DNA of 46,608 nucleotides, from positions 29,179-75,786 of the forward strand of contig CAZGLF010000001.1 of assembly GCA_964526615.1 (NCBI GenBank), in the 5' to 3' direction. Under the pieces are notes generated by a model. It saw only the letters and a list, made by a program, of their open reading frames with translations, made no database searches and had not been told where the DNA came from. Position numbers and translations under genes: made by a program. Below are positions 26,359 to 26,961 of this stretch, in pieces; position 1 is the first letter of the stretch; each line of letters starts with the position of its first letter. This stretch comes from an uncultured Planctomycetia bacterium. GTDB lineage: Bacteria; Omnitrophota; Gorgyraeia; Duberdicusellales; 4484-171.

Positions 26359-26680
26359 TTGACTTAATGTAGTTACCAAAAAACAATATAACTATGCGAG
26401 GGAGGGGATTTGTAAACAATCCGGCGAAGCCGGCTATTGCGAAGCAATATTATTGTTTCCAAAATTGTATAGTCTTTAGATGAAAACTCTTGTTGAGCTA
26501 ATGTAGTTACCAAAAAACAATATAACTATGCGAGGGAGGGGATTTGTAAACAATCCGGCGAAGCCGGCTATTGCGAAGCAATATTATTGTTTCCAAAATT
26601 GTATAGTCTTTAGATGAAAACTCTTGTTGAGCTAATGTAGTTACCAAAAAACAATATAACTATGCGAGGGAGGGGATTTG
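26359..26680. repeat. Tandem repeat, 2.4 copies of a 134-bp unit; each unit carries the last 18 nt of tRNA-Leu plus ~30 nt of its 3' flank and a double-hairpin module
   Basis: TAATGT recurs at 26365, 26499 and 26633. Units 1 and 2 looked identical by eye after the first few bases. tRNA 3'-end copies lie at 26395..26412 and 26529..26546; the genuine end is 26663..26680. Confidence 0.9.
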
Positions 26681-26746
26681 AACCCCTACAGTATTGCTAC
26701 CGCTAGCCCCTCAAGCTAGTGCGTCTGCCAGTTCCGCCACCCTCGC
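26663..26746 (-). tRNA. tRNA-Leu (anticodon GAG), type II with long variable arm; CCA not encoded
   Basis: Reverse complement folds as: acceptor GCGAGGG/CCCTCGC; anticodon arm CTAGC-TTGAGGG-GCTAG; long variable arm; T arm AGGGG-TTCAAAT-CCCCT; discriminator A. Confidence 0.9.
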
Positions 26747-26961
26747 GTAAACGTCTATTTAAATTGTCAAGCATGTTGTTTTGACCAAAGTTCTATTTAT
26801 TCTGTTTGCCGGTGCGGGAATAACTATATCAGTTTAAAGCCGTGTGTCTTGCTTCGCAAAAGTTATTACCGCCACCCTCGCGTAAACGTCTATTTAATTT
26901 GTCAGGCTTGTTGCCTTAAGCAAAGTTTGTCTTATTCTGTTTGCCGGTGCGGGAATAACTA
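26734..26961. repeat. Diverged direct duplication (two 93-nt copies, 26734..26826 and 26869..26961) of tRNA-Leu nt 1-13 plus ~80 nt of its upstream region, separated by a 42-nt hairpin-bearing spacer
   Basis: Manual alignment gives about 11 mismatches in 93 positions. The spacer 26827..26868 contains CTTGC-TTC-GCAA and the helix AATAACT/AGTTATT. Confidence 0.85.

What the first reader, a model, noticed from the sequence alone, without database searches (positions are those of the whole stretch)
26359..26961. tRNA-Leu(GAG) nested inside duplications of both of its own ends: 2.4 perfect 134-bp tandem units on the 3' side and a diverged 93-bp duplication on the 5' side
The layout, read in tRNA sense, is:
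- [upstream region copy 2 + tRNA nt 1-13]
- 42-nt hairpin spacer
- [upstream region copy 1 + complete tRNA + ~30-nt 3' flank]
- ~86-nt hairpin-bearing segment
- [last 18 nt of tRNA + flank]
- the same ~86-nt segment
- [last 18 nt + flank]
- unique DNA

An intact tRNA-Leu with its own flanks therefore sits between a 5' stub (nt 1-13) and two 3' stubs (T-loop CAAAT to discriminator) of the same gene. The hairpin modules at the two junctions face each other as inverted repeats (TA-N9-GCGAAGC ... GCTTCGC-N9-TA).

This is the pattern expected if a hairpin-ended element carrying, or regenerating, a tRNA-Leu copy inserted into a resident tRNA-Leu gene. Unequal crossing-over between the ~48-bp direct repeats would then have followed. 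The 3' units appear perfect (recent), whereas the 5' duplication has diverged (about 11 of 93 positions). It is neither a CRISPR array nor a simple microsatellite.
Basis: seen in the sequence. Interest (0 to 1): 0.8.

Follow-up and report, generated by a model that had tools for sequence, protein, structure and literature searches.

The report
tRNA-linked repeat cassettes flanking tRNA-Leu
A leucine tRNA gene in an uncultured Omnitrophota bacterium is bracketed on both sides by stacked ~134-base hairpin cassettes that each carry a spare copy of the gene's outermost bases; this resembles the little-understood "tRNA-linked repeats" of E. coli, with a previously undescribed mirror-image version on the 5' side.

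Summary
tRNA-Leu(GAG) lies at 26663-26746 (-). It has 2.4 perfect 134-bp units on its 3' side and a 1.7-copy, 88%-identical 135-bp repeat on its 5' side. These carry tRNA nt 56-73 and nt 1-13 respectively.

The two sides are the same kind of module in mirror orientation: end-stub, then a hairpin cluster, then a ~70-nt spacer, all pointing into the gene. The basal stem of the hairpin pairs the last 4 nt of the stub with module sequence.

Homologous modules sit at the same tRNA in other Omnitrophota, in all combinations: none, 5' only, 3' only, both. Copy number is 0-2.4 and empty sites are precise. The stem covaries (98% paired, 10 of 11 pairs compensatory). Module divergence tracks host divergence and is slower than third-codon positions. 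The 46.6-kb window encodes no recombinase.

The 3' array meets the hallmark of E. coli tRNA-linked repeats (TLRs, function unknown) but has no sequence homology to them. I found no description of the 5' counterpart or of the stub-engaging stem.

A single element carrying a tRNA copy is not supported. Independent end-replacing cassettes plus unequal recombination are supported. The origin mechanism is unresolved.

The parts
26663..26746 (-). Intact tRNA-Leu(GAG), 84 nt, with no encoded CCA
   Evidence: ARAGORN; Rfam RF00005 at 51.8 bits
26529..26662 (+). Proximal 3' cassette, read on the + strand pointing into the tRNA 3' end. Stub 26529-26546 is the reverse complement of tRNA nt 56-73. Hairpin cluster 26543-26597: TTTG t AAACAAT [ccggcGAAgccgg][tattgcGAAgcaata] ATTGTTT c CAAA. 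Spacer/trailer 26598-26662.
   Evidence: TRF 134 bp x 2.4 at 100%; descriptor scan; DNA and RNA folds
26395..26528 (+). Second 3' cassette, identical to the proximal one. Stub 26395-26412; hairpin cluster 26409-26463.
26354..26394 (+). Remnant of a third, outermost 3' cassette (spacer/trailer end only). It is perfect from 26365 and diverging at 26354-26364. It abuts the end of the UPF0280 gene region.
   Evidence: the repeat finder family D2; position-wise identity
26747..26881 (-). Proximal 5' cassette, read in tRNA sense. Stub 26881-26869 is tRNA nt 1-13. Hairpin 26872-26814: GCGG t AATAACT [ttgcGAAgcaa ...] AGTTATT c CCGC. Spacer 26813-26747 ends in AAATAGACGTTTAC just before tRNA nt 1.
   Evidence: homology to the L012, L016, L161, L112 and L154 modules
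26882..26975 (-). Older, truncated 5' cassette. It keeps the 3' arm of the hairpin and the spacer, is about 88% identical to the proximal copy, and has lost its stub and 5' arm.
25597..26313 (+). Convergent neighbour: UPF0280/AbpE-type protein. Used as the synteny and host-divergence marker.
   Evidence: PF27030; source names give UPF0280, Candidatus Omnitrophota
27023..27952 (-). Upstream neighbour on the tRNA strand: response regulator-GGDEF, last gene of a FIST / histidine kinase / RR operon. In empty-site relatives its stop codon lies 5-8 nt from tRNA nt 1.
   Evidence: Pfam; L020, L149 and L165 sequences

Best explanation
The tRNA-Leu(GAG) gene is flanked on both sides by tRNA-linked-repeat (TLR-type) cassettes.

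Anatomy. Each cassette has three parts:
- A copy of the outermost tRNA segment: nt 1-13 on the 5' side, nt 56-73 on the 3' side.
- A hairpin cluster. Its basal stem pairs the last 4 nt of that copy with cassette sequence across a conserved N.C mismatch, followed by a 7-bp stem.
- A ~70-nt spacer that carries gene-proximal signals. On the 5' side, relatives have a near-consensus sigma-70-type promoter ending 14 nt before tRNA nt 1. On the 3' side there is a T-rich, CCA-less trailer.

Arrangement. Cassettes are stacked head-to-tail pointing into the gene. The working gene's outer 13 or 18 nt and its immediate flank therefore come from the innermost cassette. Orphaned ends are pushed outward and decay.

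Shown: the anatomy; covariation of the stem; presence/absence with precise empty sites; copy-number differences; divergence that tracks the host; absence of recombinase genes in the window.

Inferred:
- Copy number rises and falls by unequal recombination or slippage between the 13-nt or 18(+30)-nt direct repeats.
- Deletion between stubs restores an uninterrupted gene.
- The cassettes are retained because they give the tRNA its own promoter, trailer and insulating hairpins in a very compact convergent-gene junction.
- The stub-sequestering helix is the functional core, probably acting as a single strand (RNA in the precursor, or single-stranded DNA).

Not shown: how the first cassette entered. 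The junctions lie at the D-stem/D-loop boundary and inside the T-loop.
For: Mirror anatomy:
- Seen: - The stem descriptor (4 bp + N.C + 7 bp) hits only these modules in 308 kb of related DNA. Shuffled versions of the window give 0-1 hits.

Covariation:
- On hand-excised stem arms from 10 modules, 98.2% of cells are paired and 10 of 11 pairs show compensatory changes. No shuffle out of 500 reaches this, and slid controls give 26-52% paired.
- The 4-nt foot matches the target on each side: GCGG/CCGC on the 5' side, TTTG/CAAA or CTTG/CAAG on the 3' side. The 3' foot follows the T-loop variant.
- Minimum-free-energy folds recover the stem in every module.

Relatives:
- 5' only: L012, L016. 3' only: L144 (L152 also has a 3' module, but its 5' side is cut off by the contig end). 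Both: L161, L164. Neither: L020, L149, L153, L159, L160, L165. All share the same flanks.
- L152's distal flank equals L148's empty-site flank.
- L161 has two 5' copies and L164 has one, with an identical UPF0280 coding sequence.
- L112 has two perfect 124-nt copies.

Inheritance:
- 5' module identity is 0.66-0.68 where host coding identity is 0.65, and 0.86-0.91 where it is 0.87-0.89.
- This exceeds third-codon identity in both cases (0.44 and 0.73-0.81).

Signals:
- Promoter-like TTTACA-17-TATAAT or CATAAT at the same module position in L012, L016 and L161.

Absences:
- No integrase, transposase, RT or Cas1 in the window.

Known analogue:
- E. coli TLRs are defined by an 18-19-nt copy of the upstream tRNA's 3' end (PMC8144298).
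- The tyrT locus gives 178 bp x 3.1.
- Both the tyrT unit and the Eremiobacterota units fold with the stub's inner end in a basal helix enclosing hairpins.
Against: - No expression or processing data exist, so function is inferred only from conservation and consensus matches.
- The promoter-like block is not preserved by the same consensus in the window's own 5' cassette (reading).
- Intrinsic-terminator signals are weak and inconsistent between lineages.
- Retention over deep divergence alongside repeated losses could also reflect re-acquisition.
- The origin of the first cassette is unexplained. It needs an insertion that carries a copy of the gene end, which is what mobile elements do.
- The covariation alignment was built by hand around the proposed stem.
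- The compensatory change in the 4-nt foot may represent a single evolutionary event.
Confidence: 0.5

Rival explanations
1. The cassettes are non-autonomous, site-specific mobile elements: either a minimal attP-only (CIME-like) integrative element, or a single-stranded-DNA element with a guide hairpin. A recombinase encoded elsewhere would insert them at the D-loop or T-loop of tRNA-Leu(GAG). They carry the displaced gene end so that the tRNA is regenerated. Repeated insertion at the regenerated target builds the tandem arrays.
For: - The stubs run from a tRNA loop exactly to the mature gene end, as at tRNA attachment sites of integrases. T-loop attB sites are known, for example phage Ms6 (PMC1762012, listed).
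- Empty sites are precise.
- The innermost copies are the newest and perfect; the outer ones are decayed.
- The 4-nt foot complementary to the target differs between the two sides and follows the T-loop variant. From memory, this recalls the guide tetranucleotides of IS200/IS605 elements.
- In Omnitrophota locus L138, a Leu-type unit ends in a tRNA-Gln stub.
Against: - No recombinase is encoded in 46.6 kb.
- No other copies were found in 308 kb of related DNA.
- No matches were found in viral contigs.
- Module divergence mirrors host divergence and is constrained. That argues for vertical descent rather than recent spread.
- In the window, L144 and L161 the repeat extends 21-41 nt beyond the tRNA into the trailer, which a simple crossover inside the stub does not predict.
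- There are no terminal inverted repeats.
Confidence: 0.22
2. The units are decayed copies from an ancestral tandem array of tRNA-Leu genes (tRNA of about 84 nt plus a spacer of about 50 nt gives a period near 134). Only the terminal nucleotides and an arm-like stem survive.
For: - Periods of 124-142 nt fit a tRNA plus a promoter-sized spacer.
- The GCGG/CCGC pairing on the 5' side mimics the D stem.
- E. coli TLR units look like acceptor/T-arm minihelices, and the tyrT and tyrV genes are themselves tandem.
Against: - The module parts beyond the hairpin show no significant similarity to the tRNA on either strand (p 0.12-1.0).
- Identity drops from 100% to background exactly at nt 13/14 and nt 55/56. 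Gradual decay does not produce such an edge.
- The distal full stub abuts the native upstream flank seen at empty sites, which indicates an insertion.
Confidence: 0.1
3. The perfect 134-bp copies are an assembly artefact: a short-read assembler traversed a repeat loop too many times, or chimerised strains.
For: - The window comes from a metagenome-assembled contig.
- The repeats are 100% identical.
- Several unitig assemblies of relatives break exactly at stub boundaries.
- L161 versus L164 could be a collapsed assembly rather than real variation.
Against: - The key junctions (hairpin to stub) recur in independent assemblies of several relatives from different samples and assemblers: L012-L015, L016-L019, L161-L164, L144, L152 and L112.
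- The 5' duplication is diverged, so it cannot be a loop artefact.
- Only the exact number of 3' copies is at risk.
Confidence: 0.08
4. The cassettes exist mainly to encode small RNAs or peptides released from the tRNA precursor or from the neighbours' 3' UTRs. E. coli TLR products RttR and RrA/B/F, and the 29-aa Tpr peptide, would be the model.
For: - The structured core is conserved, with purine-rich GAA, GAAA, GAGA and GCAA loops consistently on the module-sense strand.
- E. coli TLRs from rRNA operons are transcribed, processed and bind Hfq and CsrA (PMC8144298).
- A 29-aa basic ORF starts inside each 3' stub on the + strand.
Against: - No Rfam family matches even at E<=10.
- There is no Shine-Dalgarno sequence upstream of the small ORF (read directly from the sequence).
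- The hairpin cluster differs completely between L144 and L161 while the architecture is kept, which is odd for a trans-acting RNA.
- Single-sequence fold z-scores are modest, -0.2 to -3.5.
Confidence: 0.1

Closest known systems
E. coli tRNA-linked repeats (TLRs), e.g. the 178-bp x 3.14 repeats after tyrT/tyrV (Egan & Landy 1978; RttR / Rfam RtT RF00391; PMC8144298)
   Same: - Tandem units of about 130-180 bp lie immediately downstream of a tRNA gene, with 1-5 units per locus.
- Each unit ends in an 18-19-nt copy of the tRNA's 3' end.
- The inner end of that copy is locked in a basal helix that encloses short C-GNA-G / GNRA-type hairpins.
- A tiny basic ORF sits inside the unit.
- Function is unknown.
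   Different: - There is no sequence or covariance-model similarity.
- The stub lacks CCA here.
- The basal helix uses only 4 stub nucleotides plus a module-internal 7-bp stem.
- The purine-rich loops lie on the strand antisense to the tRNA.
- A mirror-image family on the 5' side carries tRNA nt 1-13 and a promoter-like block. That is not part of the TLR definition, and I found no description of it.
attL/attR scars of tyrosine-integrase elements in tRNA genes, and cis-mobilisable remnants (CIMEs)
   Same: - The direct repeat runs from a tRNA loop to the gene end.
- The gene is regenerated.
- Tandem accretion gives three repeats flanking two units.
- Precise loss is possible.
   Different: - Units are only 116-126 nt long.
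- No integrase is present in the window.
- The cassettes are constrained and vertically inherited rather than decaying.
- A covarying hairpin replaces protein arm sites.
- A 5'-end version exists.
IS200/IS605-family elements and their miniature derivatives (target choice by a 4-nt guide at the foot of a hairpin; recalled from memory, Barabas et al. 2008)
   Same: - A hairpin sits next to the junction.
- A 4-nt sequence at the foot of the hairpin is complementary to the last 4 nt of the flanking target, and it differs with the target.
   Different: - Those elements make no duplication.
- They have two distinct hairpin ends.
- They are dispersed in many copies.
- They need a Y1 transposase. None of these features was seen here.
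Folded single-strand recombination sites (integron attC; CTX phage attP(+) with XerCD; from memory)
   Same: - An imperfect hairpin with a conserved unpaired base forms the site.
- Integration regenerates the target and allows tandem arrays.
   Different: - The R''/R' core consensus is absent.
- No IntI was found.
- The target is a tRNA end rather than attI or dif.
Casposon insertions at tRNA 3' ends (14-15-bp target duplications; from memory)
   Same: The 3' end of a tRNA gene is duplicated on either side of the insert, and tandem arrays are known.
   Different: There are no terminal inverted repeats and no Cas1, and the units are about 100-fold smaller.

Membership tests
tRNA-linked repeats (TLR, E. 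coli) | Units lie immediately downstream of a tRNA or rRNA gene, one to five per locus | tested here: met
   Two full units plus a remnant directly follow the tRNA 3' end, 26354-26662. Definition taken from PMC8144298.
tRNA-linked repeats (TLR, E. coli) | The 3' end of each unit is 18-19 nt identical to the 3' end of the upstream tRNA | tested here: met
   18 nt (CAAATCCCCTCCCTCGCA) at 26395-26412 and 26529-26546 are identical to 26663-26680. CCA is not included, unlike in E. coli.
tRNA-linked repeats (TLR, E. coli) | Homology to E. coli TLR units (Rfam RtT, RF00391) | tested here: not met
   RtT scores 133-137 bits on each E. coli unit. It gives no hit in the window at E<=10, and none in seven related or analogous loci at the gathering score.
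tRNA-linked repeats (TLR, E. coli) | Co-transcribed with the tRNA and processed from the precursor | not testable with these tools
   No expression data are available.
Integrase att-site remnant / CIME | Direct repeats consisting of the tRNA segment from a loop to the gene end | tested here: met
   The stubs are nt 56-73 (T-loop to discriminator) and nt 1-13 (5' end to D stem).
Integrase att-site remnant / CIME | A tyrosine or serine recombinase gene within or next to the element | tested here: not met
   Pfam on all 46 non-nested ORFs of 100 aa or more in the window finds only housekeeping genes. The only loosely related hits are two HTH_17 domains about 17 kb away.
Integrase att-site remnant / CIME | The repeat is confined to the shared core, and the flanks differ | tested here: inconclusive
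   True in L152 and at the 5' sites. In the window, L144 and L161 the repeat extends 21-41 nt into the trailer.
MITE | Terminal inverted repeats and many dispersed copies | tested here: not met
   The unit ends carry no terminal inverted repeats (read from the sequence). No further copies were found in the window or in 308 kb of relatives. Whole genomes were not available.
IS200/IS605-derived or REP/RAYT elements | A Y1/HUH transposase or RAYT gene, dispersed copies, and no target duplication | tested here: not met
   No such gene is present in the window. Copies occur only at the tRNA ends. Duplications of 13 and 18 nt are present.
Integron attC | R'' RYYYAAC ... R' GTTRRRY core, and an IntI gene nearby | tested here: not met
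   The stem arms read TAATAACT/AGTTATTC and TAAACAAT/ATTGTTTC. No integrase was found.
CRISPR array | Short identical repeats separated by unique spacers, usually with cas genes | tested here: not met
   The intervening segments are identical to each other. No cas genes are present.

The most novel reading that the evidence does not exclude
The cassettes are a so-far-undescribed class of miniature, recombinase-dependent elements. They home to either end of a tRNA gene by pairing a 4-nt foot of their hairpin with the target: GCGG at the D stem, and YTTG on the opposite strand at the T-loop. They replace the displaced gene end and bring their own promoter or trailer. On this reading, tRNA-linked repeats in general (unexplained in E. 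coli since 1978 and seen here in Omnitrophota, Eremiobacterota and a Peregrinibacteria genome) would be the footprints of such elements.
Probability: 0.15. Interest if true: 0.8.

Novelty: new variant of a known kind. Interest (0 to 1): 0.5.

Why it matters
tRNA-linked repeats have been known in E. coli since 1978. According to the one recent paper that treats them as a family (PMC8144298), they still have no known function and no explained origin.

This locus and its relatives add three things:
- The same architecture exists in a distant, uncultured phylum, with no sequence homology to the E. coli units.
- It can occur on both ends of a gene in mirror image.
- Its conserved core is a covarying helix that engages the orphaned tRNA end.

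Close relatives differ in presence, absence and copy number. That gives a natural comparative system for asking how such repeats arise and whether they serve the tRNA (own promoter, CCA-less 3' end, insulation between convergent genes) or only themselves.

There is also a practical consequence. These repeats break short-read assemblies exactly at tRNA ends, and they can mimic attachment sites of integrated elements.

Tried and rejected
- Exact-protein look-ups of the window's own UPF0280 and RR-GGDEF proteins found nothing on record, and neither did P0001. The rest of this genome could therefore not be read.
- My single genome-contig scan used an anticodon-arm pattern that turned out to be shared by many phyla. 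It returned few Omnitrophota, but it accidentally exposed analogous arrays elsewhere.
- Viral-contig scans for the CCA-less 3' junction and for the 5' stub-hairpin junction found nothing.
- Rfam at permissive thresholds gave only the tRNA and sub-threshold noise, including RAGATH-25 at 15 bits.
- I tested whether the spacers are decayed tRNA sequence. They are not.
- I tested whether the 5' and 3' spacers are homologous to each other. They are not.
- MAFFT could not align the two hairpin sub-families. I therefore excised equal-length stem arms by hand, which biases the counts towards the structure.
- A microhomology/slippage origin from a pre-existing local hairpin was considered and rejected. 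Single-module loci have one hairpin cluster per extra stub, and empty sites lack the hairpin altogether.
- Reading the hairpins as bidirectional intrinsic terminators was rejected as a general explanation. A U-tract follows the stem only in some modules and never in the 5' family.
- An acceptor-like pairing of the 3' stub with a YYYTYGY motif in the spacer was noticed in folds. It is not at homologous positions between modules, so I dropped it.
- GC skew gives no consistent strand logic for the two hairpin orientations.
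Full report
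**1. Observation**

The window holds tRNA-Leu(GAG) at 26663-26746 on the - strand (ARAGORN; Rfam 51.8 bits).

Tandem Repeats Finder reports 26365-26680 as 2.4 copies of a 134-bp unit with 100% matches. The 75-nt hairpin-bearing core occurs exactly twice, against 0 expected in shuffles. The last 18 nt of the tRNA recur twice downstream, each followed by the same flank.

Upstream, tRNA nt 1-13 plus about 92 nt of upstream sequence are duplicated at an offset of 135 nt. Identity is 88% (11 mismatches in 93), and a 42-nt hairpin-bearing spacer lies between the stub and the next copy.

The only caveat is that the number of perfect copies in a short-read MAG contig cannot be checked with these tools.

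**2. Anatomy, re-read**

Each side becomes clear when read on the strand that points into the gene.

- The 5' unit (- strand): GCGAGGGTGGCGG | t AATAACT [ttGCGAAGCaa ...] AGTTATT c CCGC + spacer + tRNA nt 1.
- The 3' unit (+ strand): tGCGAGGGAGGGGATTTG | t AAACAAT [ccgGCGAAGCcgg][tattGCGAAGCaata] ATTGTTT c CAAA + spacer + the reverse complement of the tRNA 3' end.

So both sides are stacks of the same kind of module: end-stub, hairpin cluster, spacer. In both, the last 4 nt of the stub pair with 4 nt just beyond a 7-bp stem, across a conserved N.C mismatch. Minimum-free-energy folds, as DNA or as RNA, recover this stem.

On each side the outermost copy is truncated and, on the 5' side, diverged.

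**3. Relatives**

The neighbouring UPF0280 protein identifies the organism as a Candidatus Omnitrophota MAG. The closest other lineages share about 63-65% amino-acid identity.

The synteny FIST / histidine kinase / RR-GGDEF > tRNA-Leu(GAG) < UPF0280 is conserved. Module states at this tRNA are as follows:

| State | Loci |
|---|---|
| One 5' module | L012-L015, L016-L019 |
| 5' module (contig L069 starts inside it) | L154, L069 |
| Two perfect 124-nt 5' modules | L112 |
| One 3' module (5' side empty) | L144 |
| One 3' module (5' side cut off by the contig end) | L152 |
| Both sides occupied | L161 (two perfect 5' modules), L164 (one 5' module) |
| Neither side | L020, L149/L153, L159/L160, L165/L166, L146 |

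L161 and L164 have an identical UPF0280 coding sequence, yet differ in 5' copy number.

Empty sites are precise. In L161 the distal stub follows the same 'ttcttaaaat(g)tc' flank that precedes tRNA nt 1 in L149 and L165. L152's distal flank equals the flank after L148's uninterrupted tRNA.

Several unitig contigs (L001-L010, L011, L069, L143) begin or end exactly inside a stub. That is what a real repeat does to a de Bruijn assembly.

**4. Structure**

A mechanical descriptor (4 bp, any base opposite C, 7 perfect bp, loop 15-50 nt) hits only these modules in 308 kb of Omnitrophota-type sequence. It hits 0-1 times in shuffled versions of the window.

On ten distinct modules, 98.2% of stem cells pair and 10 of 11 pairs show changes on both sides. 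None of 500 shuffles reaches this, and structures slid by 1-3 columns pair in only 26-52% of cells. I excised the arms by hand because MAFFT failed on the full hairpins, so these counts lean towards the structure.

The 4-nt foot matches its target: GCGG/CCGC at the 5' side, and TTTG/CAAA or CTTG/CAAG at the 3' side. The 3' foot follows the T-loop variant CAAAT versus CAAGT.

The inner hairpins differ freely in sequence but end in GAA, GAAA, GAGA or GCAA loops closed by C-G, always on the module-sense strand. From memory, C-GNA-G and GNRA-type loops are unusually stable in DNA as well as in RNA (Hirao and colleagues). I therefore cannot say which nucleic acid forms the functional hairpin.

**5. 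History**

The 5' modules of the window, L012, L016, L161, L112 and L154 align along their whole length. The 3' modules of the window, L144 and L152 are homologous to one another. The 5' and 3' spacers are not homologous to each other, and neither resembles the tRNA.

Identity of the 5' module tracks identity of the host UPF0280 coding sequence and exceeds identity at third-codon positions:

| Comparison | 5' module | Host coding sequence | Third-codon positions |
|---|---|---|---|
| Window vs L012, L016, L161 | 0.66-0.68 | 0.65 | 0.44 |
| Among L012, L016, L161 | 0.86-0.91 | 0.87-0.89 | 0.73-0.81 |

This is the pattern of an old, vertically inherited and constrained sequence, not of a recent invader.

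On a rough single-gene tree, occupied and empty loci are interleaved. That requires either several precise losses, which are easy between 13-18-nt direct repeats, or allele exchange between relatives.

L161 keeps the native 'CCA + flank' of the empty sites beyond its distal stub, separated from it by 21 nt of module trailer. This indicates an array that has been trimmed from the outside.

**6. Signals**

- In L012, L016 and L161, every 5' module carries TTTACA-17-TATAAT or TTTACA-17-CATAAT (10-11 of 12 consensus positions), ending 14 nt before the stub or the tRNA.
- In empty-site relatives the tRNA starts 5-8 nt after the RR-GGDEF stop codon. The cassette would therefore give the tRNA a promoter of its own. 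This is an inference.
- The same consensus is not met in the window's own 5' cassette.
- In the core clade, every tRNA with a 3' module lacks an encoded CCA and is followed by TAGTYTT.... Uninterrupted genes mostly encode CCA.
- Terminator-like matches are weak and inconsistent.
- A 29-aa ORF begins in each 3' stub on the + strand, but it has no obvious ribosome-binding site.

**7. No machinery in sight**

All 46 non-nested ORFs of 100 aa or more in the window are housekeeping genes or have no Pfam hit. There is no integrase, transposase, HUH protein, reverse transcriptase or Cas1. Viral contigs hold neither junction.

**8. What is known**

E. coli has 22 'tRNA-linked repeats' at ten loci. Their hallmark is an 18-19-bp copy of the 3' end of the upstream tRNA or rRNA. 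According to PMC8144298 they have no known function, apart from three rRNA-operon members that bind Hfq and CsrA.

I fetched the classical tyrT/tyrV locus. It holds 178-bp units x 3.1, each matched by Rfam RtT at 133-137 bits. Its fold puts the inner end of the stub (AUCCUUCCCC) in a basal helix enclosing short hairpins.

The window's 3' array meets the positional and stub criteria and this topology, but not the sequence family.

The accidentally broad genome scan also showed tandem 135-142-nt units with 35-37-nt 3' stubs after tRNA-Leu(GAG) in several Eremiobacterota. These have the same stub-engaging helix. It also showed terminator-plus-stub units in another Omnitrophota genome (L138) and a 5' stub in a Peregrinibacteria genome (L081).

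I found no description of a 5'-side counterpart in four text searches.

**9. Explanations**

Best supported (confidence about 0.5): TLR-type, locus-bound cassettes that replace the outer 13 or 18 nt of the gene together with its proximal flank. They are kept under constraint. They expand and contract by recombination between stubs, and they decay from the outside.

Main rival (about 0.2): non-autonomous site-specific elements driven by a recombinase encoded elsewhere. The loop-to-gene-end stubs, the precise empty sites and the target-matched 4-nt foot fit this. Vertical, constrained divergence, the absence of other copies and the absence of any enzyme gene count against it.

Other readings:
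- Decayed tandem tRNA genes are disfavoured by the knife-edge identity boundary and by the lack of residual similarity to the tRNA.
- An assembly artefact can affect only the count of perfect copies.
- A small-RNA role is possible but untested.

Their ideas of end regeneration and of unequal crossing-over are.

**10. Limits**

- There is no read-level, expression or whole-genome evidence.
- The host tree rests on one gene.
- The compensatory change in the 4-nt foot may be a single evolutionary event.
- The promoter calls are consensus matches only.

Noticed in passing
L029, L031, L038, L044, L111 (Eremiobacterota genome loci); e.g. L044, minus strand, tRNA at 4495-4580: Tandem 135-142-nt units lie downstream of tRNA-Leu(GAG). 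L031 has two full units and L044 at least three, near-perfect. Each ends in a 35-37-nt copy of the tRNA from the variable arm to the 3' end. Each also contains GCGAAGC-type hairpins and an 18-nt segment complementary to the variable arm. About a fifth of the Eremiobacterota loci sampled have them.
   Followed up: partly
L138 (Candidatus Tantalella remota, Omnitrophota), tRNA-Leu at 186-272 and tRNA-Gln at 7603-7677: Units of about 150-190 nt (rho-independent terminator, ~100 nt, then a 14-nt tRNA 3' stub with CCA) follow both tRNAs. The second unit after tRNA-Leu ends in a tRNA-Gln stub and is followed by sequence homologous to the tRNA-Gln downstream region. This suggests exchange between two tRNA loci, or accretion of integrated elements.
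   Followed up: no
L081 (Peregrinibacteria), tRNA-Leu(GAG) at 474-560: A 5' stub (tRNA nt 1-12 plus 6 nt of upstream flank) lies about 100 nt upstream of the gene. This is a 5'-side duplication in a CPR (Candidate Phyla Radiation) bacterium with nearly the same boundary (nt 12/13) as in the window.
   Followed up: no
Window 26663-26746 compared with L012, L016, L020, L149, L160, L165: In the core clade, tRNA genes with a 3' cassette never encode CCA (six lineages), whereas uninterrupted genes mostly do. The cassette therefore changes the predicted 3'-maturation route.
   Followed up: partly
L016 5722-6486, L001 4721-5485, L167 2229-2996: In some relatives a 254-aa metallo-beta-lactamase-fold gene (Lactamase_B_2 / Apyc1-like, with an RNase Z-like N-terminus) is inserted between UPF0280 and the tRNA. 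In L016 it starts 11 nt after the tRNA on the same strand.
   Followed up: no
Window 26394-26483 and 26528-26617 (+): A 29-aa basic ORF (MRGRGFVNNPAKPAIAKQYYCFQNCIVFR) starts at an ATG inside each 3' stub. The E. coli tyrT repeat also holds a 29-aa 'protamine-like' ORF (tpr). No ribosome-binding site is evident, so this is probably coincidence.
   Followed up: no
Window 43531-44022 and 44190-44504 (+): Two proteins carry HTH_17 (excisionase/MerR-type) domains, one of them fused to a bactofilin domain. These are the only domains in the window loosely linked to recombination directionality, and they lie about 17 kb from the tRNA.
   Followed up: no
L145, downstream of tRNA-Leu(GAG) (contig end): A different tandem repeat of about 62 nt (ctatggtctacattgagcgaaatttgtcccgaacgaagtgaggggcaaataaa), with an internal hairpin and no tRNA stub, follows the CCA end. 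Upstream there are two short GCGAGG-containing motifs.
   Followed up: no
L148 upstream of the tRNA; L150/L143 upstream of the tRNA: These are atypical 5' stubs. L148 has GCGAGGGTGGCGG about 100 nt upstream without the CCCGC-closed hairpin. L150 has a 17-nt stub followed by a 168-nt GC-rich segment. They may be other or degenerate cassette types.
   Followed up: no
L012 3051-4175: A Fic-domain gene is inserted between the PAC2 and YjeF_N genes in this lineage only.
   Followed up: no
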